A stretch of DNA of 64,000 bases from Chloroflexia bacterium (GTDB lineage Bacteria > Chloroflexota > Chloroflexia > QHBQ01 > JADMIH01): contig DATEOC010000092.1 in assembly GCA_035274425.1 (NCBI GenBank), positions 3,562-67,561 on the forward strand. The letters are read 5' to 3'. Shown here piece after piece: positions 4,609 to 58,821 of this stretch. Positions within the stretch are counted from its first letter, which is position 1, and every line of letters begins with the position of its first letter. A program made the position numbers and the translations under genes. The notes beneath the pieces are model-generated. The model had not been told where the DNA came from, made no database searches, and saw nothing but the letters and a program-made list of their open reading frames with translations.

Positions 4609-4632
4609 TTCAAATCCTAGAGGGGATGCTGG

Positions 4633-24212: not shown

Positions 24213-25124
24213 ATGTCTATTGCATTCCAGACCCCCTACGGCACATCCTTCCACGGCCCCGCAGAGGTGATCCTTACCTCGCCTCAAGCTGAACAGTACC
24301 AAAAGCAGGTACGCCTTATTTTCACCTCACCACCCTTTCCTTTGAACAGGAAGAAGAAGTACGGTAATTTGAACGGGCAAGCATACATCGACTGGCTAGT
24401 GAGCTTTGCTCCCCTCTTCAAAGACCTTCTCATGGCGGATGGCTCTATAGTCATAGAGATGGGGAATTCATGGGAGCCCGGCCGGCCAATCATGTCTACA
24501 CTTGCCTTGCGCGCGCTCCTCGCATTACAGGAACATGGTCAATTCCACCTATGCCAGCAGTTCATCTGGCATAATTCGGCACGCCTCCCAAGTCCAGCGC
24601 AGTGGGTCAATGTTGAACGCATCCGCCTCAAAGACGCGTTCACATACTTATGGTGGCTTTCGCCCACCGAGCGTCCTAAGGCGGATAATCGCCGTGTGCT
24701 CAAAGAATACAGCGACTCCATGCAGAAACTGTTAGTCTCTGGGCGCTATAATGCCGGAAAGAGACCATCTGAGCATCACATTGGCCAAGCTTCCTTTCTC
24801 AACGATAACAACGGCGCTATTCCCTCAAACGTGATTACGCTTGCCAACACCCAGGCATCCAGTGATTACCTGAACTACTGCCGGGAGAACGGCCTCCAAC
24901 CGCACCCAGCCCGTATGCCGCCTGAACTAGCGAGCTTTTTCATTCGGTTCTTGACCGACCAAAACGATTTGGTGTTAGATCCGTTCGCTGGTAGCAATAC
25001 AACGGGGTCAGTAGCCGAAAGTCTCCAACGCCGATGGATTGCCGTTGAAGCGAGCAATGAATATATAGCGGGCTCCAAAGGACGCTTCAATCTCGATCCT
25101 GCCATATCCCAAAGCACCAGCTGA
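24213..25124 (+). CDS. Beta-class amino DNA methyltransferase (N4-cytosine or N6-adenine), with motif IV before motif I.
   Basis: Motif IV 'FTSPPF' sits near the N-terminus. Motif I 'VLDPFAGSNTTG' sits near the C-terminus. SPPF is typical of N4mC/N6mA MTases. Confidence 0.85.
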   Translation: MSIAFQTPYGTSFHGPAEVILTSPQAEQYQKQVRLIFTSPPFPLNRKKKYGNLNGQAYIDWLVSFAPLFKDLLMADGSIVIEMGNSWEPGRPIMSTLALRALLALQEHGQFHLCQQFIWHNSARLPSPAQWVNVERIRLKDAFTYLWWLSPTERPKADNRRVLKEYSDSMQKLLVSGRYNAGKRPSEHHIGQASFLNDNNGAIPSNVITLANTQASSDYLNYCRENGLQPHPARMPPELASFFIRFLTDQNDLVLDPFAGSNTTGSVAESLQRRWIAVEASNEYIAGSKGRFNLDPAISQSTS

Positions 25125-25166
25125 TCTCGCTAGGACTCAAAGCCGCAGTGTTCTGTTGGCCCTACC

Positions 25167-25222
25167 TCTAGACTAAGGTACCATGGGACTAAGGACGATG
25201 TACCATTCATCCTTAGGTCTAG
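25167..25222. promoter_or_regulatory. Stem-loop downstream of the MTase gene, with an ~11-bp stem (ctagactaagg / ccttaggtctag) and an internal ggtaccatgg palindrome.
   Basis: The inverted repeat is seen directly in the sequence. No U-tract follows, so it may be a structural or regulatory element rather than a classic terminator. Confidence 0.3.
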
Positions 25223-25614
25223 TATCGCTTGGGAACATGATTGGGTGGAGCAATCCCACGGCGTCATACCTGTTATGGACAAGGGGTATTATAGAATAGG
25301 CTAATTTGGCCTATTGACTTAACGCATACCAATAGTGTAGCATTACCCATAGTTGGAGTTGTACCTCTTTTCATTATCGCCACTATATTCCTGCGTTCCT
25401 GTGCTGACATAGACAGAACGCACCTTTGTTGCTGCCCTGGAAAAGGCGGCATTAACGTCTGGAACGGCACGACTGATCAATAGCCTAGTCAGTGTTGTGG
25501 TGGTCAGTTTTTGATCATTGTCGTTTTCTAACGCAGCAAATCCTGCTACCTCATGGACCAGATGGACCAGATAGGACAAGGACATTCAAGGAGCCTTCAG
25601 GAGATAAATAGTAG

Positions 25615-27333: not shown

Positions 27334-27335
27334 AG

Positions 27336-30239: not shown

Positions 30240-30297
30240 CATTTCTAACCTTTAGCAAGGTTATTCTGGAAGAAGTAATTCCCGAAGGATATTTCAT

Positions 30298-34119: not shown

Positions 34120-34172
34120 GGCAATTCGGCAAAGACAGTAGATGCCACACCTACTTTCTAGGAGTTCCTATT

Positions 34173-38992: not shown

Positions 38993-39397
38993 TCAAACTC
39001 GAACTCTTCGGTAAGTGAGCATCCAATACTCTGATGAGACCGTAATGAAATCACTATCTACTACCTGTAAGACCGCACTAACAAATGATCGATGTCGTGA
39101 ATTCGGACCACCGCTAAATTGAACCTGGACTGGGAACGTGTACCCGCTGTACACACCTGTCCAGGTGATTTCTCCAGATCTAATACAGTCATCCCCTGTG
39201 ATTTTGACAGCCTGCAATTTATTGCCTATAAGCTCTATCTTTATGAGCTCTGGGGATTCCGCGCCTCTGCATGTGTAACCATAACCCAGCCACAAACCGG
39301 TTAATTTTCCCACTAATAATGGTTTTTGTGGAGCCCCACAAGTGGGGCAGAAATTAGCTTCCGAACCGATTTGTGTGCCGCAGTTATGACAGAACAT
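38993..39397 (-). CDS. Zinc-ribbon domain protein.
   Basis: N-terminal 'FCHNCGTQIGSEANFCPTCGAP'. Confidence 0.5.
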   Translation of the reverse strand: MFCHNCGTQIGSEANFCPTCGAPQKPLLVGKLTGLWLGYGYTCRGAESPELIKIELIGNKLQAVKITGDDCIRSGEITWTGVYSGYTFPVQVQFSGGPNSRHRSFVSAVLQVVDSDFITVSSEYWMLTYRRVRV

Positions 39398-39416: not shown

Positions 39417-40400
39417 TCATAATCTACAAAGCATGCTCCTGTAGCGCCTTCTTTTGAGCTTTCTTGGCGAGTTGGACATAGATAGTTGTTGTGTCGCCAA
39501 GCTCGCGTGTCCTAGCGTTTCCTGCACCGTCTTGAGGTCGGTTCCTCGCGCTACATGATGTGTCGCCATTGTATGTCTCAATGTGTGAACTGACGCGCCT
39601 TTGATGTCGGCCTCTTTCATGTAGCCAGCTACGATGTACTGGATCGCCCTGGCCGTCATTGGCGTCTTGAACTTTGATACGAATACCTCATCGAAGGGCA
39701 TTTTGGGCCGGGCCTTCAACCAGGCGGCCAGGACCTGGCACGCCTTGTAGTTCAAGGGGATGGTATCTACCTTGCCGCCTTTGCGCCTGACACGAGCTGA
39801 GCCGGTGTTATCAAGGTCGCGGGTGATGAGCGCAGGCAGTTCCAGATCGCCCACCGTGAGATTAGCAAGCTCCGACAGCCTCATGCCTGTTTGCAAAAGC
39901 ACTTCGATGATGGCTGCATCTCTGATGTTATGGCTGCACGCCCGGAGCAATCGCCGGTACTCGTCCTCCGATAAGAAGCGCGGCTCTCTCTTCTGCGCCT
40001 TCGGGGGCTTCAACCTGAGTGCCGGATTGCTCGATATTATCCCCTGGGGTTCAAGGAAGGAGAAAAAGATCTTTATAGTATGAGCTTTCCGATTGCGGGT
40101 TGAGGGTTTGTGGCCGCGCCGATCAAGCTCGGCCATGTACGCTTCGAGGTGTGGCAGAGTGACATCGGCAAGAGCGCGCACTCCCCGACCATCAAGGAAC
40201 TTCACCAGGTCGTGCAGGTCATTCGCATACTCGCCCCTGGTCCTGGCCGCCAAGTTCCTAGCAGGCATACCTACCACTTCAAATAAAGCCACAGCATGGC
40301 GCACTGTATCGCCCTCAGCGGAACCAATTGCTCCAAACTCCTCCATAATATCTCCTGGAATTGGCTCAAAACGGCTCATACATTGGCTGTTAAATATCAC
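39417..40400 (-). pseudogene. Tyrosine recombinase/integrase with a frameshifted extreme C-terminus. The catalytic-Tyr segment is out of frame.
   Basis: In frame: 'RHTMATHHVARGTDLKTVQETLGHASLA', then nonsense 'TQQLSMSNSPRK...'. Dropping a 2-nt 'ca' within the acacaacaac run (about 39486-39497) gives the canonical 'LGHASLATTTIYVQLAKKAQKKALQEHAL*'. Confidence 0.55.
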
Positions 40401-40799: not shown

Positions 40800-43700
40800 A
40801 TGGACACGAATCCTGGTGTTGAAGGATCCCTGATCATGGCTGCAGCTGTCGGATCAGTATCCCTAGGTGGAGACATCCATGATACTCTAATTGTCACCGG
40901 GAACGGCAATATAATATCAGTCGGAAACCAAGGAACCTTCCAATTTTATCTCCTTGATCAGCGTTTTCGCGAAAGACAACTGCTTCGTACACCAGCAGCA
41001 TTTTATGATGGAACCCGTCCTAGCTGGGCCAATATTGGACGCGATGAAGACGCACACAGGGTGCTATATGGCCAAGTCCGTTCCTTCGTAGAAGACGGTT
41101 TACTACCGCCGCAGCGCATAGGCCTCATATTGGGGCTGGCTGGTGAAGGCAAGACGACGCTGCTAATGAGACTGGCATGGGATCTCTCGGAGGCTGGATA
41201 TCCTGTCCTTTGGAAACATTCAGGCAAAGCCTTCCTAACATCGGACCCCAATTATGAGAGACTATACTCAAAGCCCCTTGTGCTTTGTTTCGACCAAGCT
41301 GATGAGGAAGGAGATTTATCCGCACTGGTCACTGATCTTAGTGAGAATGGTATACCATTCGTTGTCTTGGCTAATGCCCGTACTCATGAATGGCATAATA
41401 GTGGCATTGAACCTAGATTACGCCGTGCTGCACGCTTGCAGTCATTCTCGATCACCCAGTTGGAGCGCACGGAAGTAGAGTTGCTTCTAGACAAGCTAGC
41501 AAATGCTAATAAGCTGGGTGCTCTGGCCAACATGACTCGGAGCAGCCAAGTAGACCATTTTCTAGATCAACTGAAGGCCAACGGTCAATTACTACCAGCA
41601 TTGCTAACTGCAAGATATGCGGGCACCAGTTTTGATTCAATTATAGAGGACGTTCTCCGAAAGATATATCAACGACAGCATGGTAGCTTCTTGTTGCAAG
41701 CACACGCAGTAATAAGTGCGGTGCATCGTTTTGGATACGGGTTATCTCGCAAGAATCTTGCGAGCATATTAGGAATCCCTGAAGCTCAAGTGAGCCCACG
41801 TGTGCTTAGCGCTTTGATGGGGGAATTATTGGAAGTCACTTTGGGAGGGACCGGACGGCTGTACACGCGGCATCCAGTAATTGCAGACCATGTTTTTTCC
41901 CTTTGTATCAGCAACCGATTTGTTCCTGAAGCCGAGTACATATATGAGAGCATTATCAGCAGTTTGGCTGACTCGAATAAAACAGAGCCATTCAATTCGG
42001 ATCGTAAATTACTCACCAGGATCCCTATGTCTTTGAGACGTCTCGGTGAATACGATTTGACTCGCAGAATTTTCCAGCAAGTAGATAGCTCTGGAAATGG
42101 TAGTTCCTTCTTATGGCTCCAATGGGCGTTAACTGAGAGTAAGGTAGGTAACTATGGAAAAGCTAGGGATCTATTCAGACAGGCGAGAGACGTTAGTCCT
42201 TCCAATCCTTATATCACACGAGAATGGGCGCAAATGGAGAGAAAGCTAGGCAATGTTGAAGATGCAAGGAGCCTATTTGGTCAGAGCATAAAGGCTGACC
42301 CTACTGATGGGAATGCGTGGCAGGCGTGGGCCGTTATGGAGAAGGAACAAGGAAACATAGAACGAGCACGCGAACTGTTCCGAAAAAGCACTAACGTTGA
42401 TCCACTCAATGTGGCCACATGGCAAGCGTGGGCCTTGTTGGAGAAGAAACAAGGAAACATAGATGGCTGGATAGTACTCTGCCAGCAAGCCATCGATTTA
42501 GACCCTAACAGTCCGGAAGGCCTGCATCTTCGTGCATTAATGGAGAAGGAAAAGAGGCGTTTTGAGGAAGCAAGACTACTCTTCCGGCAAGTTTCAGTCG
42601 TTCGGCCAGATGACCTCAATGCGCTGCAAACATGGGCAGCAATGGAAGAGAAAAACGGGAACACAGAGTTAGCACGTGAACTGTTTCAGAGGATCATTGA
42701 CGCAATTCCTGATGATGTCTACACGTGGCAGGCGTGGGCCATTATGGAGAAGGAACAAGGAAACATAGAACGAGCACGCGAACTGTTCCGAAAAAGCACT
42801 GACGTTGATCCGACTGATGCTAAGTCTTGGCAGGCGTGGGCCGTTATGGAGAAGGAACAAGGAAACATAGAACGAGCACGCGAACTGTTCCAGCAGGCAA
42901 GCTCCTGCAACCCACGTGATGCGTACGTGTGGCAACCTTGGGCTTCAATGGAACACCATATGGGAAACATAGAACTAGCCCGTGAGTTATACCAACATGC
43001 TGTAGACTGCGACTCGCAAAATAGACATACCTGGCGACAATGGGCCATTATGGAGAAGGAACAAGGAAACATAGAACGAGCACGCGAACTGTTCCAACGA
43101 GCTGTAGACTCTGGTCCGAAAGATCAGCTTACGTGGAAGATGTGGATTCTCTCTGAAAAGGAAAACGGCAACATAGAACAGGCACGGGAATTGTTCAAGC
43201 GCGCATTGGAGGTGAGGCCCACTGATAGATATCTACTTGAAGCATGGCCAACTATGGAAAAGGAAAACGGCAACATAGAACAGGCACGGGAATTGTTCAA
43301 GCGCGCATTGGAGGTGAGGCCAAGAAACAGAGATTTACTCGCAGCATGGCTGGCTATGGAAAAAGAAAACGACTCATATGTAGACCACATAGTTCAATTC
43401 TTCGCACAATTAGAAGATAGGAGAGAAGGCGCCGGGGCCATACACATGCTGGCAATCTGGGCCAAAAAGCAAGGTAACTATGAGCAAGCTCGAGAGCTAT
43501 TTCAGCAGAGCGTTAGCATTAACCCGAATAACCCCCATATCTGGGAAGATTGGGCCTCTATGGAAGGGGACCTAGATAATACAGAAACGGCCCGACGTCT
43601 ATTTAGTAAGGCCGTTGAGTCGGATCCAGCGAATTCTCATCCGTGGCACAAATGGGCACAATTTGAGGAGGAACAAGGAAACATAGAACGAGCACGCGAG

Positions 43701-44606
43701 TTGCTTCGCAGTGGCGCAGACACTAACCCCGCAAATCCGTTCATATGGAGCTTCTGGGCACGTCTTGAAAAGGATTCAGGCAACTATGAAGAAGCTATAG
43801 ACCGCTTGAGGCAAGGTTTGATTGCTATTCCTAGCAATACGCAACTCTGGATGGAATGGGTCTATTTAGAAGAGAACCGCGGTAATCACACTGAAGCAAT
43901 GCGGTTACTTGATCTCTCTATGCAAGCGCATCCAGGGAACCGAGATCTTCAAGCACTTGAGCGGGCAATTCAGAAGAAGCAACTAAACACATCGCCGCGT
44001 CAGCATACGAAAAAGATATCAGCCCAGGAGGTTCAGATCGCAAGAAGCATACTAAAACAAGCGATAGGTATGAAAGCAAAGGGAAACTACGAAGAAGCAC
44101 GTCGGCTGTTTCAGCAAGGGACCGAGATTTCTCTGATACAAGCTGAGAGCTGGACAGGGTGGGCCATAATGGAGGGGAATCTTGGTAATTATGAGAAAGC
44201 AGATACACTAATTGAACAAGGATTAGCAGTGAGTCCCGAGAATCCGGCGCTTTGGTTAAACCGCGGGTTATTAAAGAAGAACCATGGGGATTACGACGGC
44301 GCTCGGCGTGTATTCCAAAATGGCATTGACGCTACCAGAGGCAATGCGCACGTATGGATGGGATGGGCACGCCTTGAAGCGGATTTAGGCAACTCTGAAG
44401 AGGCTCGCCGCCTCTTCGAGGATAGCCTTATCGCCAATCCTGGGAACGCCGAGATATTAAGACGTTGGGCGCAAATGGAACAGTCTTGTGGGCAAACCGC
44501 TATTGCGGGGCGTCTTCTATCCGACGCTCACAACAATACAAAACGGATTAAACGGTTAGATCCTAACAAGCGAGAACCGAATGGCGACGAGGTGAATACT
44601 GTATAA
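40800..44606 (+). CDS. P-loop NTPase fused to more than 20 HAT/TPR-like repeats (1268 aa).
   Basis: Walker A 'GLAGEGKTTLLMRLA'. This is followed by iterated 'WQAWAxMEKEQGNIERARELFxxA' half-a-TPR units. Confidence 0.8.
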   Translation: MDTNPGVEGSLIMAAAVGSVSLGGDIHDTLIVTGNGNIISVGNQGTFQFYLLDQRFRERQLLRTPAAFYDGTRPSWANIGRDEDAHRVLYGQVRSFVEDGLLPPQRIGLILGLAGEGKTTLLMRLAWDLSEAGYPVLWKHSGKAFLTSDPNYERLYSKPLVLCFDQADEEGDLSALVTDLSENGIPFVVLANARTHEWHNSGIEPRLRRAARLQSFSITQLERTEVELLLDKLANANKLGALANMTRSSQVDHFLDQLKANGQLLPALLTARYAGTSFDSIIEDVLRKIYQRQHGSFLLQAHAVISAVHRFGYGLSRKNLASILGIPEAQVSPRVLSALMGELLEVTLGGTGRLYTRHPVIADHVFSLCISNRFVPEAEYIYESIISSLADSNKTEPFNSDRKLLTRIPMSLRRLGEYDLTRRIFQQVDSSGNGSSFLWLQWALTESKVGNYGKARDLFRQARDVSPSNPYITREWAQMERKLGNVEDARSLFGQSIKADPTDGNAWQAWAVMEKEQGNIERARELFRKSTNVDPLNVATWQAWALLEKKQGNIDGWIVLCQQAIDLDPNSPEGLHLRALMEKEKRRFEEARLLFRQVSVVRPDDLNALQTWAAMEEKNGNTELARELFQRIIDAIPDDVYTWQAWAIMEKEQGNIERARELFRKSTDVDPTDAKSWQAWAVMEKEQGNIERARELFQQASSCNPRDAYVWQPWASMEHHMGNIELARELYQHAVDCDSQNRHTWRQWAIMEKEQGNIERARELFQRAVDSGPKDQLTWKMWILSEKENGNIEQARELFKRALEVRPTDRYLLEAWPTMEKENGNIEQARELFKRALEVRPRNRDLLAAWLAMEKENDSYVDHIVQFFAQLEDRREGAGAIHMLAIWAKKQGNYEQARELFQQSVSINPNNPHIWEDWASMEGDLDNTETARRLFSKAVESDPANSHPWHKWAQFEEEQGNIERARELLRSGADTNPANPFIWSFWARLEKDSGNYEEAIDRLRQGLIAIPSNTQLWMEWVYLEENRGNHTEAMRLLDLSMQAHPGNRDLQALERAIQKKQLNTSPRQHTKKISAQEVQIARSILKQAIGMKAKGNYEEARRLFQQGTEISLIQAESWTGWAIMEGNLGNYEKADTLIEQGLAVSPENPALWLNRGLLKKNHGDYDGARRVFQNGIDATRGNAHVWMGWARLEADLGNSEEARRLFEDSLIANPGNAEILRRWAQMEQSCGQTAIAGRLLSDAHNNTKRIKRLDPNKREPNGDEVNTV
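42300..43400 (+). repeat. Near-identical tandem DNA repeats (~100-bp units) inside the HAT-repeat gene.
   Basis: The ~65-bp 'gagaaggaacaaggaaacatagaacgagcacgcgaactgttccgaaaaagcact(a/g)acgttgatcc' segment occurs at 42337-42401 and 42735-42799. Its ~41-bp core 'gagaaggaacaaggaaacatagaacgagcacgcgaactgtt' recurs at ~42848 and ~43054. A separate unit 'gaaaaggaaaacggcaacatagaacaggcacgggaattgttcaagcgcgcattggaggtgaggcc' occurs at ~43150 and ~43255. Spurious minus-strand ORFs at 42273-43390 arise from these repeats. Confidence 0.7.
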
Positions 44607-49690: not shown

Positions 49691-50473
49691 TTGACCGAGG
49701 CTCTTACATTCGCGCAGTGGTTCAAACGGCGCTCCCGCGAGCTAGGCATCTCGGTGAAACAGTTACACCGTCTCCTTATATTATCTGTTTCATCCATTGA
49801 GAAAGTACTGAGAGGTGACCCACCATCAAAGGGGTTCGCGTTAGAAGTAGCCCATTTATTTGCTATCCCTGACGACCAACGTGATGCATTCGTGGAGTGG
49901 GCACGTGGCGAGGGTGGTCTCCCTTCCTCAGGAGCAGTAGATGCGGAGATAGATGGAACAGCAAAGGCGCAAAGCAAAGCGGATGGGCCTATTAGAGATA
50001 GAATGCCGTGGTTGGATCCTCCTGCTGGACATGATTCTATTCGGGTGTTCTTGTGCCATGCTTCAGAAGACAAGCCCACTGTTCGCGACGTCTATTTTCG
50101 CGTCAGGGCTGCGGGCTTTTCAGTCTGGCTCGATGAAGAGGACCTCCTTCCAGGCCAGGACTGGCGGGTAGAGATACCAAGGGCGGTGAAGCACTCGGAC
50201 GTTGTGCTGGTATGTCTCTCAAAGCGAGCTGTGACCAAGGCTGGATACGTTCAAAAGGAGCTTGGATCTGCCCTCGATATTGCTGAGGAGCAGCCAGAAG
50301 GCACGATCTATTTGATACCGGTGCGCCTGGAAGAATGTGAGGTACCGAACCGATTGGAGCAGTGGCAGCGGGTCGACCTTTTCAGTCTTGGATCACAATC
50401 AGGTTACTCCTGGCAAGGTTACCGTAAGCTGTTCCGTGCGCTTCGCGAGCGTGCGCGGCAGCAAAATCAATGA
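49691..50473 (+). CDS. XRE-like HTH domain fused to a TIR domain (TTG start).
   Basis: N-terminal 'TFAQWFKRRSRELGISVKQLHRLL'. TIR block 'RVFLCHASEDKP...VWLDEEDLLPGQDW...AVKHSDVVLVCLSKRAVTKAGYVQKELGSALD', with the conserved Glu in 'VQKEL'. Confidence 0.7.
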   Translation: MTEALTFAQWFKRRSRELGISVKQLHRLLILSVSSIEKVLRGDPPSKGFALEVAHLFAIPDDQRDAFVEWARGEGGLPSSGAVDAEIDGTAKAQSKADGPIRDRMPWLDPPAGHDSIRVFLCHASEDKPTVRDVYFRVRAAGFSVWLDEEDLLPGQDWRVEIPRAVKHSDVVLVCLSKRAVTKAGYVQKELGSALDIAEEQPEGTIYLIPVRLEECEVPNRLEQWQRVDLFSLGSQSGYSWQGYRKLFRALRERARQQNQ

Positions 50474-51069: not shown

Positions 51070-52690
51070 TTCAAAATCGGGGGCTAGAAGTATGTAATCC
51101 TTGCCTGGCAAGGACCCGCTGTAGATGCCGGGGAGCGAACCAGGGGATAGCAACTCGAGAGTAAACGCAAGCAAGTTGCCACCTTCAAAAGTCTAGCCCC
51201 CGATTTTGAATGGTCTCCAAACTGACGGCCAAACTTCCAAAAAGAGCATTCATAAGCCTGTGACATACTGCTGGGGCTAAAGCCCCGCAGCTTCTTGCTT
51301 CAACGCTTCTTGCCACCCACAGGTGGTCTTACAAAAGCTCCACAAGCGTTTACACTCTCCGTGTGCCCCACGGCCAGTATACCTAACTCCCCGGCCCCGG
51401 ACCCTCCCGCCCTGGACACCCCAGACCGTAATATCCTCATGCCTTCTGTCCGTATGTTGTGCGCAGCGTTGATGTCCCGATCATGCACCGTACCGCATTC
51501 GCACACCCACTCTCTGTCTCTAAGGGTGAGATCGCTCTTCAACGCTCCACACATACGGCACAGCTTTGACGATGGGAACCACCTCGATATCTTCACGAAG
51601 TGCTTCCCTTCCCACAAGCACTTGTACTCCAACATACGTACAAAGCTGCCTAATCCTGCATCGTGTACCGAGCGGGCCAGCTTGGTTCTCGCCATACCCC
51701 TCAGTGACAGCTCCTCAACACAGATTGCTGAATTGGACTTGACAAGTGCGTGTGATTGCTTATGCAGGAAATCATTACGCTGGTTGGCCACTTTGCGGTG
51801 GGTGCGGGCTACCACCAGGCGCTGCTTAACCCTGTTGTTTGACCCTTTCTTCTTGCGGGAGAACGAACGTTGTACCCTCCTTAGTTTGCGTGCCGCCCGT
51901 CTCATATGTTTTTGTGAGGGTATCTTCTGTGTCTTGCTGCCGTCTGTGCCATTTGTGACTGTAGCAAAGCTCGCAAAGCCAAGATCGATGCCCACTGTTG
52001 TCTCTGGCCGAGATGGGGCTTTAGCATCAGGCATCTCCACCTGGCAGACCAGGGTGATGTGCCAGTTGCCTGTGCAGTCCCTCTTGAAGGTGGCAGATCG
52101 TGTCTTACCTTCCACTGGACGATGCTGCTTTACTTTTATGTGGCCTACCTTGGGCAGGTATACCTTACCCTTACCCTTACCCTCGCCCTTAGCATCTTGT
52201 GGGTTCAGGACACAGCGTTGAGGGATCCTGAACGATTGGGAAGGGTCCTTCTTACTCTTGAAGTGGGGGAAGCGTGCCCGTTTCTCGAAGAAGTTGAGGA
52301 AGGCCCTATCGAGGTCAGAGACTGCTTGCTGCAGCAGTTGGCTATCTATATCACGAAGCCAGCGAGTCTCTTCTCTCTTTTTGAGGGCGGTAAGCTGTCT
52401 CATCAACTCCCTTCTGGGGAGGGTCTTACCATGGTGGGCGTAATATCCCCTACGAGTGGCGAGTGCCCAGTTGAAGACCCAACGCCTGGCACCGGCATAC
52501 CTACCTAGAGCCATAACTTGCTCGTGGGAAGGGAATAGCCTGAAACGATATGCCTTTTGTACAGTAATCATGCTGGTGATAATTTTAGATATATGGTCTG
52601 CACCTCAGACCCATTATAGCACAAATGTGCTGACAAATCGAGGGATTACACGCTTCCTGTCGTGGGCTTCTGAGGCATGGGAAAGATCAA
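51070..52690 (-). mobile_element. IS200/IS605-family (IS1341-like) element carrying tnpB only, with no tnpA.
   Basis: A tnpB ORF plus a subterminal hairpin 'agcacaaatgtgct' at ~52622 (left end). A 19-bp perfect inverted repeat (51072-51090 / 51193-51212) downstream of tnpB, where a TnpB guide RNA (omega-RNA) or right end is expected. Confidence 0.6.
51300..52571 (-). CDS. tnpB: TnpB (IS605 OrfB family) RNA-guided nuclease.
   Basis: N-terminal 'MITVQKAYRFRLFPSHEQ'. C-terminal zinc finger and RuvC-III 'CRMCGALKSDLTLRDREWVCECGTVHDRDINAAHNI'. Confidence 0.9.
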   Translation of the reverse strand: MITVQKAYRFRLFPSHEQVMALGRYAGARRWVFNWALATRRGYYAHHGKTLPRRELMRQLTALKKREETRWLRDIDSQLLQQAVSDLDRAFLNFFEKRARFPHFKSKKDPSQSFRIPQRCVLNPQDAKGEGKGKGKVYLPKVGHIKVKQHRPVEGKTRSATFKRDCTGNWHITLVCQVEMPDAKAPSRPETTVGIDLGFASFATVTNGTDGSKTQKIPSQKHMRRAARKLRRVQRSFSRKKKGSNNRVKQRLVVARTHRKVANQRNDFLHKQSHALVKSNSAICVEELSLRGMARTKLARSVHDAGLGSFVRMLEYKCLWEGKHFVKISRWFPSSKLCRMCGALKSDLTLRDREWVCECGTVHDRDINAAHNIRTEGMRILRSGVSRAGGSGAGELGILAVGHTESVNACGAFVRPPVGGKKR

Positions 52691-52942: not shown

Positions 52943-53395
52943 ATGGTCATAAGACACTACAATACGGAGGCAGCGACAACTGACATAGTTGCTCCCGATA
53001 TGCAGGCCATAGACGAGCGAGAGAAAGCTTTCGCCAGGGCTGTGAACGAAGTACACAGTCAGGCCATGCGCACATCGCCTGTCCAGATGGCACAATCGCT
53101 CAGGGACGCGCTCTCGACACAACTGCTCGCATATATAACCGGCCAGAGTGAGCGCACTGTTCAGCGTTGGGCAAGGGGAGACGTCGGGGATATCAGGCAG
53201 GAGAGCAAGCGCCGCCTGGTTACGGCTTACGAGATCCTGCAGATCATAAACCGCTTTGAGGCACCCGGCGTTGCACAGACATGGTTCATAGGCAGCGAGC
53301 CCCAACTCGATTTCGTCATGCCCGCCAAAGCGTTACGTGAGGACCAATTGGAAGAGGCCCTGGCTGCTGCGCGTTCCTTCGTTGCAGTCGGGTAG
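52943..53395 (+). CDS. Xre/MbcA/ParS-family antitoxin (DUF2384-type C-terminal domain).
   Basis: C-terminal 'AQTWFIGSEPQLDFVMPAKALREDQLEEALAAARS'. Directly upstream of a RES-domain gene. Confidence 0.7.
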   Translation: MVIRHYNTEAATTDIVAPDMQAIDEREKAFARAVNEVHSQAMRTSPVQMAQSLRDALSTQLLAYITGQSERTVQRWARGDVGDIRQESKRRLVTAYEILQIINRFEAPGVAQTWFIGSEPQLDFVMPAKALREDQLEEALAAARSFVAVG

Positions 53396-53428
53396 CCTTC
53401 GGTAACGCCAGGTAGCCAGGAAGTATTC

Positions 53429-54157
53429 ATGAGAACAGTCCATGCCCCGGCTCTGCCGGTGTTTCGGATTGCCACGATCCGGGGAGGCGGGGCGGATGAA
53501 GTCTATGACCCGCCCCCTTTGAGCACTTCTTTTCGAGGTCGCTTCGATGATCAGCGTATCAACGACCCCAACAGGACCTTTCCCAAAAAGCATTGCTATC
53601 GCGTTCTCTACTTTGCGACGGAACGAGCGGGGGCTTTTGGGGAGATCCTGCAGAGACACATACCAAACCCTCAAGCGCTGCAGGATATATTCAGAAATCG
53701 ACCTCCATCAGATCCGCTTCTGCTAGGCGGGCAGGTCAAACAAGCAGAGCTCACCAGGAGGCAAATAGGCGCTACCCGTCTCGACCCCACGCTTCGGTTC
53801 GCTGATGTCATAGCACCGGAGTCCCGCATGGAACTCTACTACACTCCCTCTATCACACCACTCGTGGAACAGTTAGACCTGAACTTCCTGGATGTCAGCG
53901 CGATCACCGGCGACACGAAGGAGCATCGCCAGCTCACGCAGGCAATAGCTCTCCACATCTACAATCTGACCGACGATCAAAGCCAACCGCTCTTCGATGG
54001 TATCCGCTATCTATCGCACGTGAACATGGACTGGGAATGCTGGGCAGTATTCCATGACCGCTTCCGTCACACTCCTGTTTCTACCGAGCCTGTGGACCTC
54101 GGTGATCCTGAGCTACATCGCGCCCTTTCAGCCATCAATGTGAAGGTCATGCCATGA
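53429..54157 (+). CDS. RES-domain toxin (MbcT/ParT-like NAD+-targeting toxin).
   Basis: Conserved R...E...S spacing in 'FRGRFDD...RVLYFATERAGAFGE'. Canonical Xre-RES gene order with a 33-bp gap. Confidence 0.7.
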   Translation: MRTVHAPALPVFRIATIRGGGADEVYDPPPLSTSFRGRFDDQRINDPNRTFPKKHCYRVLYFATERAGAFGEILQRHIPNPQALQDIFRNRPPSDPLLLGGQVKQAELTRRQIGATRLDPTLRFADVIAPESRMELYYTPSITPLVEQLDLNFLDVSAITGDTKEHRQLTQAIALHIYNLTDDQSQPLFDGIRYLSHVNMDWECWAVFHDRFRHTPVSTEPVDLGDPELHRALSAINVKVMP

Positions 54158-54467
54158 GAGCAAAGCACTCACTCGTCCTGGCTTCCAAGCTGCGCCGGGC
54201 GCCTTACATCGCGATTACAGAAGGGTAGCATGAGTCTCGAACTGCTGGCAACCGTGCCTGAGAACCAGCGGATGAGTATGGTAGCCAGTACAGGCAGAGA
54301 GGGCCTTCTGTGTGGCAAAAGGCACGACTCGAAGAGTCCGCATTACCACCATTTATACCACCAAACACATGGACTCGGTGGTACAAAATGGACAATTCAG
54401 CACAGCTTCGTCCCAGTTCACACACAAAAAGGACCCTCTCGGACACAGTAGACGCTCACCAATGTAG

Positions 54468-54512
54468 TTGACATCGTAGGGGTCACTGGTTCAAGTCCAG
54501 TACTTCCCACCA
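54468..54512 (+). repeat. Truncated tRNA 3'-end-like sequence (T-arm, acceptor 3' strand and CCA). Copy 1 of a direct repeat.
   Basis: T-stem ACTGG/CCAGT with loop TTCAAGT, then ACTTCCC-A-CCA ending at 54512. No matching 5' acceptor strand (GGGAAGT) lies within 100 nt upstream, so this is a fragment and not a gene. Confidence 0.5.
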
Positions 54513-54850
54513 ACTAAATAAGCACCAAAAAGCCCTCGGATAGCACTTCCGGGGGCCTTTTATATGCCTGTGAAAGCAAAACAGACAATACTAGCAATCG
54601 GGGGTTTAGCCGTCAATCCTGACAGCAATAGTAAACTGCCTCGTCTTCGTAGCTGGGCAATCTTGACACAACACTCTGAGCATTACTGAGGTGGTGTGCG
54701 TGTAATAGCAATAACCCAAAGTCGTTTTGACGGTGGGATGCATGGCCATCTGTCGGGCGGCATCAGGATTTGCGCTCGCCTCCCTTATGGCAACACCTGG
54801 GCCTGGCCTCTCGCGCTCTTCGGGTGCATTCCGGGTGTGCCGTTTTCGAT

Positions 54851-54862
54851 GGGGGGGGGGGG
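54851..54862. repeat. G12 homopolymeric tract about 140 bp upstream of the DUF4238 gene.
   Basis: The sequence 'ttttcgatggggggggggggaaagctc' is seen directly. Confidence 0.8.
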
Positions 54863-55000
54863 AAAGCTCTCACCGCAAGCGGTGCTGGGCGCACCCTCGC
54901 ATTTTCTTGAATTCAATAGAACGAATGTTTTATAATGGACCTAAAGTAACGGCATTGTCACAATATGGGAGCAGGCAGTGGGAAAGCTGAGGTAGCCACG

Positions 55001-55984
55001 ATGACACCGATCCAACGTCCAAAAGGGCAACATTACTTGCCTCAACTCTACCTTAAAAGGTTCTCTATTCCAGGTGGGAAGAATCAACCTGCTATCTGGA
55101 CATACAACAAGATGAATGATAGTGTGGAAGCCATTGGAATAGGCAACGTCTGCAAGGAGTCGAGTTTCCACGATGTGATAGATGGAGAAGGCAACGCCAA
55201 GTCGTTAGAGTCGAATATAACAGAGAATGAGGTTAGACTTGGTAAAGCATATTACGCATTTTGTGACGATCCAACTTTGGAGGTTCTTTGGTCTAAATTC
55301 ACAGATATTACGACGTATATTGCCTTCCTCATAGCCCGTTCCCGACGATATAGGCAAGTCCTGCACTCTTTTGTGGCTCAGGTTGTTGAGGCGCAGAAGG
55401 GTGTCGGTATAGAATCGATGTGGTCGGGTTTCGATGAGAACGACATTAAGATCAACCACTTAAATCTCATTGGGGAGGAGACTGACAAGATTGTACAACG
55501 GCTAAGCCAGATGAAGTGGGTGATCTGCATCAACAGGACGCCCAGGCGATTCTACACTTCCGATTATCCATTTGCATTCGAGCCAATTACTGAAGAGCGC
55601 ATGCGAGGACAAGGGCTGATTATACCCTCTATCTCTTGGTTGTTGGAGCGGAAAGGGATGAGAATGTACTTCCCTGTTACGCCACGTGTAGCCCTCATAA
55701 TTGGCGACCCTGCTACACATTCCCATATTCCCGACACCATTTCCCTCAGCTTGGGGGACATACTAACAACCGTGCGGACGCTGAATCAAACGCAGGTAAT
55801 TTGGTCGGAGCGATTCGTATTCTCCCAGGAGAATGATTTTTCGCTCGTAAAGACAATGCTCAAAGCAGATGAGTCTCTGCGAAACCCCAACAAACGCCGC
55901 TTCAATGTGAGTGTTAGTTTGAAGACTGGGGAGGCAGAGGGTGGATCGCTCGCTCCCTCGTCCATGCTAATACACACTGGGTAG
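55001..55984 (+). CDS. DUF4238 domain protein (alternative start at 54965).
   Basis: N-terminal hallmark 'QHYLPQLYLKRF' (HYxPQxxLxxF). A GAGGT RBS precedes the ATG at 55001. The region has lower GC than its flanks. Confidence 0.6.
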   Translation: MTPIQRPKGQHYLPQLYLKRFSIPGGKNQPAIWTYNKMNDSVEAIGIGNVCKESSFHDVIDGEGNAKSLESNITENEVRLGKAYYAFCDDPTLEVLWSKFTDITTYIAFLIARSRRYRQVLHSFVAQVVEAQKGVGIESMWSGFDENDIKINHLNLIGEETDKIVQRLSQMKWVICINRTPRRFYTSDYPFAFEPITEERMRGQGLIIPSISWLLERKGMRMYFPVTPRVALIIGDPATHSHIPDTISLSLGDILTTVRTLNQTQVIWSERFVFSQENDFSLVKTMLKADESLRNPNKRRFNVSVSLKTGEAEGGSLAPSSMLIHTG

Positions 55985-56013
55985 TAAGGCAACGATTTAC
56001 GCACTGAATTGTG

Positions 56014-56063
56014 CGTTGGCATAGTAAGGGTCACTGATACAAGTCCAGTGCTTCCCACCCATA
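56014..56063 (+). repeat. Degenerate second copy of the tRNA-3'-end-like repeat.
   Basis: 'gcatagtaagggtcactgatacaagtccagtgcttcccaccca' aligns with 54468-54512 with about 5 mismatches over 44 bp. Confidence 0.45.
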
Positions 56064-56134
56064 ATTTAGGCACGAAGAAGGCACTTCCAATAAGAATGGA
56101 AGTGCTTTCGCTTTCGTCAATTCCGTATGATCGT

Positions 56135-56812
56135 CTACCCTTCAGCGATCAGCAGCCCCGCATCGTCATTTCGGACGCTGTTCACGCGCTGGGAGACCTG
56201 GGCAGCGGCCATCTTCTGAGGCTCATAGGGGGCCAGCAGGTTCATCAGCCTGGAGATAGGCGTCGTGGGGTCGAGCCACATATCTTCCGCGTCGTCACCC
56301 AGGATGACGGGCATACGGTGGTGCAGCCTCTCCATAAAGGTGTTGGCGGATGTGGTGATGATGGTGTAGGTATCGAGTGGGTGCCCTTGAGGGTCGAGCC
56401 ATGTGTCGTACAGGCCGGCCAATGCAAATACCGGCTCGTCTTTGAGGTAAATATGGTACGGCACCTTCCCCTGGCCCGTGTCCTGCCACTCGTAAAAGCC
56501 GCTCACCGGCACGAGGCAGCGCTTTGACTGGAGGGGCTTGCGGTAGGAGGGCTTCTCCAGCACCGTTTCAGCCCTCGCATTGATCATATTGAAGCCGGTG
56601 CGAGGGTCCTTAGCCCAGGAAGGGACCAGGCCCCACTTCATCATCTCTAGGCTGTTATGCCCGTCTCTATTCCCATTCCTGCGCACGACGACGGGCATAA
56701 CCTGGCCCGGCGCGACGTTGTACCTGGGGGTGGCGAGGTCAAGCCTCTCAGAGGTGGCGTTGAACCTGGCAGCCAAACCGGCTATTTCTTTTAGCTCATA
56801 TCTACCGCACAT
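56135..56812 (-). CDS. SOS-response-associated peptidase (SRAP/YedK/HMCES family, DUF159).
   Basis: Starts 'MCGRY' (catalytic Cys2). Also 'RYNVAPGQ', 'MINARAET' and 'RCLVPVSGFYEWQ' align with E. coli YedK. Confidence 0.85.
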   Translation of the reverse strand: MCGRYELKEIAGLAARFNATSERLDLATPRYNVAPGQVMPVVVRRNGNRDGHNSLEMMKWGLVPSWAKDPRTGFNMINARAETVLEKPSYRKPLQSKRCLVPVSGFYEWQDTGQGKVPYHIYLKDEPVFALAGLYDTWLDPQGHPLDTYTIITTSANTFMERLHHRMPVILGDDAEDMWLDPTTPISRLMNLLAPYEPQKMAAAQVSQRVNSVRNDDAGLLIAEG

Positions 56813-57057
56813 GCCATAATTATACCACACATTTGTTCTAAAAACAATCCGTCGTAAGCCCTATCTTTCTCTTTTTCTCATATAAGCTTGTTAATAAAGT
56901 AACAATCTTAAGGCGCTCTTATGGTGGTGCTCCATTCTCTAAGGCCTTCTTAAGTGCGCGCCTGGTAAGATTAGGGCAGAGAGATAAAGAAAGCATCTCG
57001 AACAAAATAACAAAACCAAACACAACAAACAAAACCAGAAGGAGATATAGAAACACA

Positions 57058-57474
57058 ATGAACCTCATATCAAACATCAACAAAGTAATCAGGACACTCG
57101 GCGTTATGGGCATCATGCTTGCCCTGGCAGGCTTCACAGCTTCGGTTGCTCCCTCCGCCTCGGCTGCCTCGGCTCCGACCAGCGTACGCGGCGACTACGG
57201 CGCACTTTCTGTGGCGGTAGGCTTCCAGTATAGCACTTCGGACCAGAACGTGGCCACAGTGGTAGTGCAGAACCGCAACGGCAAGCTGATCGAAAAAGGC
57301 ACCACGAACAGCGAAGGCGTCTACATCGTCAAGATTATGCCCGATGCCTACAAGGTAACTGTGACGGCAGATGGTTACAAGCCTTACAGCCTGGCAGTAA
57401 GGGTGAACTCCAGCCAGACCTCGGAAGTGAAAGTCGCGCTTGAAAGCGACTCAGATCCTGCGGTCCGCCAGTAA
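57058..57474 (+). CDS. Small secreted protein with a signal peptide and a CarboxypepD_reg/prealbumin-like beta-sandwich domain.
   Basis: Signal peptide 'MNLISNINKVIRTLGVMGIMLALAGFTASVAPSASA'. Domain 'NGKLIEKGTTNSEGVYIVKIMPDAYKVTVTADGYKPY'. An AGGAGA RBS precedes the start. Confidence 0.6.
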   Translation: MNLISNINKVIRTLGVMGIMLALAGFTASVAPSASAASAPTSVRGDYGALSVAVGFQYSTSDQNVATVVVQNRNGKLIEKGTTNSEGVYIVKIMPDAYKVTVTADGYKPYSLAVRVNSSQTSEVKVALESDSDPAVRQ

Positions 57475-57502
57475 TCATAAAGACCGAAACTGAACCAAAC
57501 GA

Positions 57503-57545
57503 AAAATGGAAGTGGAACTAAGTTCCACTTCCATTTTTCGTTTTA
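57503..57545 (+). terminator. Rho-independent terminator.
   Basis: 'aaaaatggaagtggaac taagt tccacttccatttttcgtttt' forms an 11-bp stem followed by a T-run. Confidence 0.65.
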
Positions 57546-57634
57546 TATACCCTAATCAGCCAATATGCCTGGGCTTCTCTTGTAATCAGTATCAAACAGC
57601 AGCTCAATAAATCGTGGATAGTTGCTCCCCGCAG

Positions 57635-58636
57635 CTATCCAAAGCAATTTAGTACAGCATCCCAGGCCAGTTCGCTAGCCACGACGGCCAATGCCAGGTC
57701 CGGCAAGCTCGGATTATCTACCTCATTAGTGGTTACGGCCCACAATACATCGCCATCCCTGGGAGTGTTGAACGGCTCAATGGCCCTGCTCATAGAGCCA
57801 TGCACCTGGCGAGCGAACTGCCGCAATGACCAGTCAGTTCCGCGCTCAGTGCTCAGCTTCTGGTTCGTGACTACTATGGTCAAAGTGGTGTTGCCTTGTT
57901 GGGGCACCTCTGGCCTGGTCGCTGGATTCGTACCAGCATCTGCATCGATGCGCTGAGCCAATCCTTCCATGTGACGATACCGCCGCCCGGTCTCAGGGTC
58001 GAGATGGCCTCTGACCGCCATCCCCTGCCTGTCTATGATAGCGCCCACGGAGTTGACCACTGTGAAGACGGCAAGCCTGGTAGGCCCTATCTGGCGGAAC
58101 GCGCCTCCCTGCCCTCCCCACTCCCGCCAGTCGAAGCCCAGGCCCTTCCCTACCGTAGCCGATGCTCCCGCCCCTCGCCTGCCCAGCGGGAATATGCCGG
58201 GCGAGGTGGAGCGTAATGCTGCCCGCAAAGCTGCCCTCCCTAATGCCTGATCTGGATAGATTGCATTCTCCCTGGAGCCGTAATCAAATATGATCCCGCC
58301 CGATACGAGCGGTATGCCGTTCCAGTTGGCATTATGGCCTCTAAGAGCAAATAGCTCTTCGCTGACGCCGGTAGCGGCTGAGAGTCCGAGGAGCGAGCCA
58401 CCAGCGAAGCAGACGGCATCAACTGCCTGGCGCTCGTCGGTGAGCAGCGTCCCGTGGGAGCCGCCACGCACGTCTACCGCTGCCTGCGCTAAAGTCGGAA
58501 AGTAAAAGACGGTACAGCCCGTTGGGCCTTCCTCGTATTCAGCTACGCCGACCAGCAGTGAGGGGAAATCAAAAGTCAGGCCAGGCTCCCCGGAGAAGTC
58601 GGTCCTGACCGTAAGTTGGGTGTTACTATTGTTCAC
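57635..58636 (-). CDS. P1 (formerly S58, DmpA/L-aminopeptidase D-Ala-esterase) family peptidase.
   Basis: 333 aa with 'LLVGVAEYEEGPTGCTVFYFP' near the N-terminus and typical length. Confidence 0.65.
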   Translation of the reverse strand: MNNSNTQLTVRTDFSGEPGLTFDFPSLLVGVAEYEEGPTGCTVFYFPTLAQAAVDVRGGSHGTLLTDERQAVDAVCFAGGSLLGLSAATGVSEELFALRGHNANWNGIPLVSGGIIFDYGSRENAIYPDQALGRAALRAALRSTSPGIFPLGRRGAGASATVGKGLGFDWREWGGQGGAFRQIGPTRLAVFTVVNSVGAIIDRQGMAVRGHLDPETGRRYRHMEGLAQRIDADAGTNPATRPEVPQQGNTTLTIVVTNQKLSTERGTDWSLRQFARQVHGSMSRAIEPFNTPRDGDVLWAVTTNEVDNPSLPDLALAVVASELAWDAVLNCFG

Positions 58637-58821
58637 ATTCTTGTTCCCCTGCTGCTTTGGGATGTTACATTGCCCCTATTGTACATTTACATTGAACACT
58701 CAACCACCACTGAATAATTCAGGTATAATTGCCTTCCTAGAACTCGATATTGCACAAAACAGGTAGGTCCTCGCCAGTGGCGAGTTCTGATGAGATATTT
58801 ACCGTATGTTCGGGAGGCAGC

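What the first reader, a model, noticed from the sequence alone, without database searches (positions are those of the whole stretch)
54468..56063. Two truncated tRNA-3'-end-like direct repeats bracket a low-GC 1.5-kb minicassette carrying only a DUF4238 gene
Both repeats keep a T-arm, an acceptor 3' strand and CCA. Neither has a 5' half, so they are att-type tRNA remnants and not genes.

The flanked segment is AT-richer than its surroundings. It carries a single DUF4238 (HYxPQ) gene, a family typical of defence or abortive-infection islands.

This looks like a minimal integrated cassette, or the scar of serial site-specific integrations at a tRNA 3' end. The intact tRNA is not in the window.
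Basis: seen in the sequence. Interest (0 to 1): 0.6.

Follow-up and report, generated by a model that had tools for sequence, protein, structure and literature searches.

The report
tRNA-Val integration scars around defence gene
Two leftover 3' pieces of a valine tRNA gene mark where mobile DNA inserted at least twice into the same tRNA in a Chloroflexia genome, trapping a 1.5-kb integrase-less remnant that carries one probable anti-phage gene; this is a clean example of a well-known process.

Summary
Two direct repeats (54467-54532 and 56015-56080) are the 3' part of tRNA-Val(GAC), running from the anticodon loop to the 3' end.

- **Copy 1** is 100% identical over 46 nt to intact tRNA-Val genes of related Chloroflexia.
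- **Copy 2** has 6 substitutions and ends in CCC rather than CCA, as some intact relatives do.
- **No tRNA** lies in the window or in the 3.7 kb of contig upstream of it.

All 28 ORFs left of copy 2 have low GC3 (0.42-0.66). Conserved genes start 70 nt to its right (GC3 0.70-0.79).

A close relative has an intact tRNA-Val where copy 1 sits, about 4 kb of different cargo, then the same SRAP gene.

The 120 nt left of copy 1 are conserved at analogous junctions in other contigs. They carry an ACCACCA-N5-ACCACCA motif that looks like integrase arm sites.

The segment between the copies holds a terminator, a promoter-like site and one DUF4238 gene. It has no integrase.

Best reading: serial anticodon-loop integration at tRNA-Val, leaving a decayed element that resembles a cis-mobilizable element (CIME). 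This is a new member of a known kind, of low to moderate interest. An analogous 1.65-kb cassette in another genome leaves open that such mini-cassettes are themselves mobile.

The parts
54158..54466 (+). Non-coding right end (P-arm side) of the large upstream island. It contains the motif ACCACCATTTATACCACCA at 54345-54363.
   Evidence: 54343-54512 is 79% identical over 170 nt to L011, where it also abuts a tRNA-Val fragment while the neighbouring genes are unrelated. L016 is similar. The motif is unique in the window, with 0.01 expected by chance. It recurs about 75-120 nt from the tRNA-Val sequence (75-90 nt past the tRNA end, 105-120 nt before the fragment) in L004, L011 (both sides), L014 and L016.
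54467..54512 (+). Copy 1: the 3' part of tRNA-Val(GAC). It comprises anticodon loop TTGACAT, anticodon-stem 3' strand, variable loop, intact T-arm, acceptor 3' strand, discriminator A and CCA. It is the attR core of the upstream island.
   Evidence: 100% identical over 46 nt to intact tRNA-Val(GAC) genes in L002 and L004. No 5' half is present. The T-arm folds as a 5-bp stem with a 7-nt loop.
54513..54566 (+). Flank type A plus an intrinsic terminator (stem 54532-54556, then a T-run).
   Evidence: Terminator scan and fold z = -3.6. The flank matches the sequence that follows the intact tRNA-Val in close relative L004 (59 nt, 95%).
54567..54964 (+). Non-coding spacer of the cassette. It holds a G12 run (54851-54862) and a promoter-like site TTGAAT-18-TATAAT (54907-54936).
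   Evidence: Sequence and promoter scan, 10 of 12 matches. ORFs here have no Pfam hit. The promoter region is conserved in L018.
54965..55984 (+). DUF4238 gene, the only gene between the copies. The source's gene call starts at 55001 and gives 327 aa.
   Evidence: Pfam PF14022, E = 1.5e-25. HYLPQ motif. The source names it a DUF4238 domain-containing protein. AlphaFold2 model with pLDDT 91.6. GC3 is 0.535.
56015..56060 (+). Copy 2: a decayed 3' part of tRNA-Val(GAC). It has 6 substitutions, including anticodon GAC to GGC and hits in the T-stem and T-loop, and ends ACCC. It is the older, outermost att remnant.
   Evidence: 39 of 46 identical to copy 1. Aligned with intact genes. 87% identical over 63 nt to L002 and L014.
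56061..56115 (.). Flank type B (CATAATTTAGGCACGAAGAAGG) plus hairpin 56081-56105, which also serves as the terminator of the convergent SRAP gene.
   Evidence: The flank matches the sequence after intact tRNA-Val genes in L002, L006, L013, L014, L015 and after the fragments in L001 and L016. Hairpin: (I11).
56135..56830 (-). SRAP (YedK-like) gene, the first conserved chromosomal gene to the right of the scars.
   Evidence: Pfam SRAP, E = 2e-76. 93.6% nt and 92.6% aa identity to L004, where homology starts at window 56133. GC3 is 0.763.

Best explanation
This locus is a tRNA-Val(GAC) integration hotspot in a Chloroflexia genome that has been hit at least twice by elements using tyrosine-integrase-type recombination in the anticodon loop.

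Each incoming element carries its own copy of the tRNA 3' part, plus a terminator, in its attP. Integration therefore rebuilds the tRNA gene at the left end and pushes the previous 3' part to the right end.

1. **Copy 2.** It has the widespread flank B and lies 70 nt from the first conserved gene. It is the oldest displaced 3' end and has decayed.
2. **Copy 1 and the cassette.** Copy 1 has flank A and its own terminator. It arrived with the element whose remnant is the DUF4238 segment. It served as the working 3' end of the tRNA until a large defence-gene-rich island integrated and displaced it.
3. **The large island.** It covers at least 58 kb up to the contig start, or is several elements in series. 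Its arrival was recent enough that copy 1 has no substitution.

The 1.5-kb segment has no integrase and no recognisable arm sites. It is most likely a decayed element that resembles a cis-mobilizable element (CIME). What survives is a self-contained expression unit of promoter and DUF4238 gene, probably kept because it protects against phage.

**Shown:** the identity and register of the fragments, the flank types, the composition step, the relative with an intact tRNA at this place, and the conserved arm.

**Inferred:** the order of events, the integrase (not seen), the location of the intact tRNA, and the defence function.
For: - **Fragments are tRNA-Val 3' parts.** Both start at the anticodon loop. 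Copy 1 has 0 changes in 46 nt and copy 2 has 6.
- **Signature matches the published model.** A tDNA plus a displaced 3' fragment in the same orientation, with crossover at the anticodon loop, is the described island signature. Tandem arrays are known, 125 in Islander (PMC4383910).
- **Close relative L004.** It has an intact tRNA-Val with flank A at the place of copy 1, then about 4 kb of unrelated low-GC3 cargo, then the same SRAP, DUF4352-like and S8 genes.
- **Composition step at copy 2.** All 28 ORFs to the left have GC3 of 0.42-0.66. Conserved genes to the right have 0.70-0.79.
- **Conserved arm.** The arm left of copy 1 is conserved over about 120 nt, with an identical 25-mer, at the same junction in L011 and L016 while the cargo differs.
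- **Arm motif.** ACCACCA-N5-ACCACCA lies about 75-120 nt from the tRNA-Val sequence in five independent loci. It lies on both sides in L011, whose ORFs hit PHROG families.
- **Upstream content.** It is defence and mobile genes: RES/Xre pair, TnpB, HTH-TIR, STAND-TPR, Xer-like tyrosine recombinase, DISARM-like genes, NACHT and CHAT.
- **Independent assembly.** A Logan assembly reproduces 54483-57116 at 100% and breaks inside copy 1. That is expected if the 31-mer ending at CCA has a second downstream context in that sample (the last step is inference).
- **Same architecture elsewhere.** L001 has two tRNA-Val 3' fragments around an integrase-less 1.65-kb cassette.
Against: - The intact tRNA-Val with the left end of the big island was not found. 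It is absent from the window and from the 3.66 kb of contig upstream, so attL is unobserved and the island's size is only a lower bound.
- No integrase of a tRNA-targeting type was identified. The only tyrosine recombinase, at 39417-40400, is Xer-like and lies 14 kb from copy 1.
- The cassette has no arm motif on either side. L004 lacks any counterpart of copy 2. The segment could therefore have been imported or reshaped by other recombination.
- The source is a metagenome-assembled contig.
Confidence: 0.8

Rival explanations
1. The 1.5-kb unit (tRNA 3' part, terminator, promoter, one gene) is a bona fide minimal mobile cassette, not a decay product. It lacks an integrase and is inserted and excised in trans by integrases of larger tRNA-Val-targeting elements. 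Such cassettes would then pile up at the tRNA somewhat as in an integron.
For: A second example has the same size class and layout: L001 has fragments at 3152-3185 and 4866-4905 around three small ORFs and no integrase. Each cassette carries its own terminator and promoter. A DUF4238 homologue at 77% identity, with a conserved promoter region, sits in another context in L018, so the gene moves.
Against: Only two examples were found. No circular or empty-site form was seen. The cassette has no arm-type motif. Only 30 nt separate the stop codon from copy 2, which leaves no room for a P arm. L018 shows no tRNA fragment after the gene. Decay of integrated elements into CIMEs is a documented, simpler route (PMC5704250).
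Confidence: 0.12
2. The DUF4238 segment with copy 2 did not integrate in this lineage. It was imported as part of a larger stretch by homologous recombination between the tRNA 3' part and SRAP, from a donor that already had the scar. Only one site-specific event (the big island) would then have happened here.
For: L004, 93.6% identical in SRAP, has different DNA between the tRNA and SRAP and no copy 2. Flank B is typical of other Chloroflexia and flank A of this clade.
Against: Copy 2 still had to arise by integration at a tRNA-Val in some ancestor or donor, so the mechanism behind the scar is unchanged. Only one close relative is available. Loss of copy 2 in L004 by deletion explains the difference equally well.
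Confidence: 0.06
3. The repeats are an artefact or chance: a chimeric join in a metagenome assembly at a shared 46-mer, or tRNA pseudogenes made by local duplication without any mobile element.
For: The source is a MEGAHIT-style k141 metagenome contig. The left junction of copy 1 is not covered by the independent Logan contig.
Against: A 46-nt repeat is shorter than k = 141. The cassette and the copy 2 junction are reproduced 100% in another assembly. The same arm-to-fragment junction exists in L011 and L016. Chance is excluded, with 0 of 100 shuffles matching. Flanks beyond the tRNA part differ in type, so this is not a simple duplication.
Confidence: 0.02

Closest known systems
Genomic islands and prophages integrated in tRNA genes, marked by a displaced 3' tDNA fragment (Islander signature; anticodon-loop 'A' sublocation; tandem arrays)
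   Same: 3' fragments in direct orientation. Identity block from the anticodon loop to the tRNA end and a little beyond. Foreign-composition DNA to the left and conserved genes to the right. Two fragments in series, as in tandem arrays (PMC4383910).
   Different: The intact tDNA is not in the available sequence. The inner unit is 1.5 kb with no integrase, so it would fail Islander's integrase filter and its 2-kb minimum length. No tRNA-type integrase was identified for the outer island.
[quoted passage not shown]
   Same: Bounded by two att-type repeats. No recombinase or transfer genes. Lies in tandem with a larger element at the 3' end of a tRNA gene (definition in PMC5704250).
   Different: CIMEs are described mainly in Streptococcus and other Firmicutes and are derived from ICEs. 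Here the parent element is unknown; the related junction in L011 looks phage-like. Mobilisation in cis is untested. [quoted passage not shown] In the reading proposed here the newcomer instead entered the rebuilt tRNA gene at the left end of the resident remnant.
Single-gene DUF4238 anti-phage system from the P2 prophage hotspot (Rousset et al. 2022)
   Same: Single gene with a full-length DUF4238 domain and the N-terminal HYxPQ motif, carried on mobile DNA. The only structural neighbour in BFVD is a protein of Stenotrophomonas phage Smp131 (E = 1.4e-9, TM about 0.6). Smp131 is a P2-like phage by my own knowledge.
   Different: At most 36% identity to any other cluster representative. No PADLOC model hit even at E = 10. 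Different phylum. Activity untested. Molecular function unknown, and there is no fold match in the PDB.

Membership tests
tDNA-integrated island (Islander signature) | A displaced tDNA end fragment, identical or near-identical to the cognate tRNA, in the same orientation | tested here: met
   Copy 1 matches 46 of 46 and copy 2 matches 40 of 46 against intact tRNA-Val(GAC) genes of relatives. Both are on the + strand.
tDNA-integrated island (Islander signature) | An intact, regenerated tDNA at the other end of the island in the same replicon | tested here: inconclusive
   No tRNA in the window or in the contig's upstream 3.66 kb. The break of the Logan contig inside copy 1 hints at a second context.
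tDNA-integrated island (Islander signature) | A tyrosine integrase gene (not Xer or integron type) inside the island | tested here: not met
   There is none in 54513-56014. Upstream, the only tyrosine recombinase (39417-40400) scores best against Xer models.
tDNA-integrated island (Islander signature) | Crossover at a recognised sublocation (anticodon loop, or T-loop/acceptor junction) | tested here: met
   Identity to the tRNA starts at G-TTGACAT, the anticodon loop, in copy 1, copy 2, L011 and L016.
CIME (cis-mobilizable element) | Bounded by attL- and attR-type sites | tested here: met
   Direct repeats at 54467-54532 and 56015-56080.
CIME (cis-mobilizable element) | Lacks integration and transfer genes | tested here: met
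   The only gene is DUF4238. The small ORFs in the spacer have no Pfam hit.
CIME (cis-mobilizable element) | Derived from an ICE or IME, and can be excised or mobilised together with a neighbouring element | not testable with these tools
   No remnant of parent genes is seen. Reads or experiments would be needed.
DUF4238 single-gene anti-phage system | Full-length Pfam DUF4238 domain with the HYxPQ motif | tested here: met
   PF14022 at 90.6 bits (cut-off 27), profile positions 2-280 of 281. HYLPQ is present, and H is invariant in 98 homologues.
DUF4238 single-gene anti-phage system | Recognised by a defence-system model (PADLOC-DB) | tested here: not met
   No PADLOC family at E up to 10.
DUF4238 single-gene anti-phage system | Protects against phage | not testable with these tools
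   Shown only for an E. coli P2-hotspot homologue against T7 (PMC9122126).
Functional tRNA gene (or split tRNA half) | A complete cloverleaf, or a separately transcribed half with a partner | tested here: not met
   ARAGORN and Rfam find nothing. No 5' half is present. No promoter-like site lies upstream of copy 1 on the + strand.
Integron cassette array | Integron integrase with attI, and attC sites bounding the cassettes | tested here: not met
   No integron integrase is adjacent. The bounding repeats are tRNA fragments, not attC sites.

The most novel reading that the evidence does not exclude
In this group of Chloroflexia, the tRNA-Val(GAC) gene may serve as a collecting site for very small integrase-less cassettes. 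Each would consist of a tRNA 3' part, a terminator, a promoter and one to three genes. Integrases of larger resident elements, recognisable by ACCACCA-N5-ACCACCA arm sites, would move them in trans. This would give an integron-like, tRNA-anchored array of defence genes.
Probability: 0.1. Interest if true: 0.55.

Novelty: new member of a known kind. Interest (0 to 1): 0.25.

Why it matters
It fixes the right boundary of a defence-gene-rich accessory region of at least 58 kb in an uncultured Chloroflexia genome. It names the target, tRNA-Val(GAC), with crossover in the anticodon loop.

It points to a family of elements with conserved att arms that use this site in several related genomes.

It also adds a distant DUF4238 gene to the list of candidate single-gene anti-phage systems carried on mobile DNA. 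The gene has a confident predicted fold with no solved counterpart.

None of this changes current understanding. tRNA-anchored islands, tandem accretion and decayed integrase-less remnants are all well described.

Tried and rejected
- **tmRNA or unusual tRNA ending at copy 1.** Rejected: there are no Rfam tRNA or tmRNA hits even at E = 10. The only match over copy 1 is a chance His_leader hit driven by the terminator.
- **Third copy or 5' half in the window.** None found. An 11-mer match at 38146 lies inside a coding region and is chance.
- **Finding the intact tRNA by walking the source contig.** Look-ups with the ORF-derived starts of 961-4608 and 8289-9671 failed. The 190-aa protein gave the contig start, which has no tRNA. 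The downstream look-up returned only a short Logan contig.
- **Viral collection.** The 28-nt tRNA-Val 3' pattern gave 0 hits. The arm-motif pattern gave 8 contigs that share only the 22-nt motif and have no tRNA nearby, so they are uninformative.
- **Integrase next to attL-like junctions.** None found in L004, L014, L011 or L016. L016 carries a DDE transposase instead.
- **PHROGs and NCBIfam for the DUF4238 protein.** No hits.
Full report
**1. What is in the sequence.**

The two repeats exist. They lie at 54467-54532 and 56015-56080, are 66 nt long, 79% identical and 1548 nt apart. A 24-nt core pattern with up to three mismatches finds only these two sites in 64 kb and none in 100 shuffles.

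ARAGORN finds no tRNA or tmRNA in the window. Rfam finds nothing at gathering thresholds in the whole window. It finds no tRNA or tmRNA match even at E = 10 in 53900-56300.

Reading copy 1 by hand gives a loop TTGACAT with anticodon GAC, a stem strand CGTAG, a variable loop, a 5-bp T-stem with a 7-nt loop, an acceptor 3' strand ACTTCCC, discriminator A and CCA. That is the 3' part of a tRNA-Val(GAC).

A scan of one genome per species for a 20-nt piece confirmed this. It returned intact tRNA-Val(GAC) genes in Chloroflexia assemblies L002, L004 and L006. Their sequence from the anticodon loop to the end matches 54467-54512 at 46 of 46 positions in L002 and L004 and at 44 of 46 in L006. More intact genes came from metagenome contigs L012-L015.

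The 5' half, GGGGAGTTAGCTCAGTTGGCTAGAGCACTAC, is nowhere in the window.

Copy 2 differs from the intact gene at six positions:
- the anticodon is GGC instead of GAC;
- two changes lie in the anticodon stem and variable region;
- one lies in the T-stem and one in the T-loop;
- one lies in the acceptor strand.

Copy 2 ends ACCC rather than ACCA. Intact genes in L006 and L013 also end ACCC, so this is probably ancestral rather than damage.

**2. The flanks tell the two copies apart.**

After copy 1 comes AACTAAATAAGCACC and a strong terminator, with its stem at 54532-54556. This 'flank A' matches what follows the intact tRNA-Val in L004 (59 nt, 95%).

After copy 2 comes CATAATTTAGGCACGAAGAAGG and a hairpin at 56081-56105. 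This 'flank B' follows intact tRNA-Val genes in L002, L006, L013, L014 and L015, and fragments in L001 and L016. Both copies therefore brought along a tRNA terminator region, but of different lineages.

**3. Context.**

The source is a 104,873-nt metagenome contig labelled Chloroflexia bacterium. The window is record positions 3664-67663.

Genes to the right of copy 2:
- SRAP, ending 70 nt away;
- a CarboxypepD_reg protein;
- a DUF4352-like protein;
- an S8/SLH peptidase;
- a GAF-HD-GYP protein;
- an M3 peptidase.

Genes to the left of copy 1:
- a RES/Xre-like pair;
- TnpB;
- an HTH-TIR protein with PADLOC TIR hits;
- a STAND-TPR protein;
- an Xer-like tyrosine recombinase;
- GIY-YIG and PD-(D/E)XK proteins;
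- DISARM-like genes;
- a NERD-helicase;
- NACHT and CHAT proteins.

GC3 is 0.42-0.66 for all 28 ORFs left of copy 2, including DUF4238 at 0.535. It is 0.70-0.79 for SRAP, S8, HD-GYP and M3. The bulk GC of the 1.5-kb segment is 48.9% against a window mean of 54.0%, the 6th percentile.

**4. Comparison with a relative.**

L004 is 93.6% identical in SRAP and also shares the DUF4352-like and S8 genes. It has an intact tRNA-Val with flank A, then about 4 kb of unrelated low-GC3 genes, then SRAP. Homology to the window resumes at 56133, and L004 has no counterpart of copy 2.

The place where the window has copy 1 is therefore occupied by a whole tRNA gene in the relative. The DNA between the tRNA and SRAP is variable.

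**5. Evidence for an integration module.**

The 120 nt left of copy 1 are non-coding and conserved. Window 54343-54512 is 79% identical over 170 nt to L011, where the same arm abuts a tRNA-Val fragment while the neighbouring ORFs are unrelated and hit PHROG families. L016 shows the same junction.

The arm holds ACCACCATTTATACCACCA at 54345-54363. The pattern ACCACCA-N5-ACCACCA is unique in the window, with 0.01 expected by chance.

Among the 19 loci fetched by then, the pattern occurs only near tRNA-Val sequences:
- after the intact genes of L004 and L014;
- before the fragment of L016;
- on both sides of the fragment in L011.

It lies about 75-90 nt after the tRNA end or 105-120 nt before the fragment. 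This looks like arm-type binding sites of an integrase, which is an inference.

The right side of copy 1 and the left side of copy 2 lack the motif.

**6. The segment between the copies.**

It contains:
- the terminator;
- a 340-nt spacer with a G12 run;
- a promoter-like TTGAAT-18-TATAAT 30 nt before the start codon;
- one gene for a DUF4238 protein.

There is no recombinase. The stop codon is only 30 nt from copy 2.

The protein has one close relative, 77% identical, on a 1.2-kb soil contig (L018). That contig has a conserved promoter region but different DNA downstream and no tRNA fragment. About 1000 distant relatives exist, all at 36% identity or less.

H11 (numbered from the source's 327-aa start, as are the residues that follow; the H of HYLPQ) is invariant. 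E70, E77, R113, R118, W173, N178 and S187-D188-x-P190 are nearly invariant in 98 sequences.

The AlphaFold2 model is confident, with pLDDT 91.6 and pTM 0.90. It matches nothing in the PDB. In the viral library it matches only an uncharacterised protein of Stenotrophomonas phage Smp131.

A single DUF4238 protein from the P2 hotspot protects E. coli against T7, and its molecular function is unknown (PMC9122126). The window's protein hits no PADLOC model.

**7. Explanation.**

The data fit the standard model (PMC4383910). An element whose attP contains the tRNA 3' part recombines in the anticodon loop, rebuilds the gene and displaces the old 3' part to its far end.

1. Copy 2 is the oldest displaced end.
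2. Copy 1 came with the element now reduced to the DUF4238 segment.
3. Copy 1 was in turn displaced, recently, by the large island on the left.

The intact gene should lie at that island's left end, more than 58 kb away. It is not in this contig.

An independent Logan assembly reproduces 54483-57116 exactly and breaks 30 nt before the CCA. That is what a k = 31 graph (my assumption about Logan's k-mer size) does if the tRNA end has another downstream context in the sample. This is weak, inferential support.

The inner segment fits the description of a CIME: att sites kept, integration genes lost, in tandem with a newer element (PMC5704250).

**8. What stays open.**

- L001 shows two tRNA-Val fragments around another integrase-less 1.65-kb cassette. 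Small units of this kind may therefore be more than debris. I give that reading about 0.1.
- The order of events and the role of recombination with other genomes cannot be settled with one close relative.
- The integrase was not found.

**9. Verdict.**

This is a well-documented example of tRNA-anchored tandem integration with a decayed inner element carrying a candidate defence gene. It is a new member of a known kind.

Noticed in passing
L001:3152-3185 and L001:4866-4905: A Chloroflexia MAG has two tRNA-Val(GAC) 3' fragments, each with flank B and its own terminator. They bracket a 1.65-kb cassette of three small ORFs (one DUF3467) with no integrase. One fragment starts at the T-arm and the other at the anticodon loop with a 4-nt deletion. 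The intact gene of the same MAG is on L006.
   Followed up: partly
L011:1654-1899: A tRNA-Val 3' fragment is flanked on both sides by the ACCACCA-N5-ACCACCA motif. It looks like an attP, or like the joint between two tandem elements. The neighbouring ORFs hit PHROG families of unknown function.
   Followed up: partly
window 54851-54862: A run of 12 G lies in the non-coding spacer about 100 nt upstream of the DUF4238 start. It could be a slippage-prone tract or an assembly weak point.
   Followed up: no
window 24213-36143: A DISARM-like cluster: N6/N4 DNA methylase, NERD-UvrD-like helicase, a protein with a DrmE C-terminal domain, a large DEAD/Helicase_C protein, and a 656-aa protein with no Pfam hit.
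   Followed up: partly
window 52943-54157: A RES-domain toxin with a weak Xre/ParS-like antitoxin upstream. These are the last genes before the island's right arm, a typical position for an addiction module.
   Followed up: partly
window 51300-52571 (-): A full-length TnpB (OrfB_IS605 plus Cas12f1-like TNB domain) with no TnpA nearby. Rfam calls no guide-RNA family here.
   Followed up: no
window 39417-40400 (-) and 38993-39397 (-): An Xer-like tyrosine recombinase next to a zinc-ribbon protein in the middle of the accessory region. It may mark the border of another element inside the region that extends at least 58 kb.
   Followed up: partly
window 961-8286, 14691-19283, 40800-44606, 49691-50473: Many conflict-system proteins: two CHAT proteases, a NACHT-HEAT protein, an nSTAND5-TPR protein of 1268 aa, and an HTH-TIR protein with PADLOC TIR hits.
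   Followed up: partly
window 57497-57543: A perfect 23-nt inverted repeat between convergent genes. It shares ATGGAAGTG with the hairpin after copy 2 (56092-56104). The stretch 56868-58713, which contains it, is absent from relative L004.
   Followed up: no
L001:2800-2980: Telomere-like short repeats, (GGTTAGG)n and their complement, flank an AT-rich palindrome just upstream of the first tRNA fragment.
   Followed up: no
window 55001-55984 (protein): The DUF4238 protein gives a confident predicted structure (pLDDT 91.6) with no match among solved structures. The family's fold appears to be experimentally uncharacterised.
   Followed up: partly
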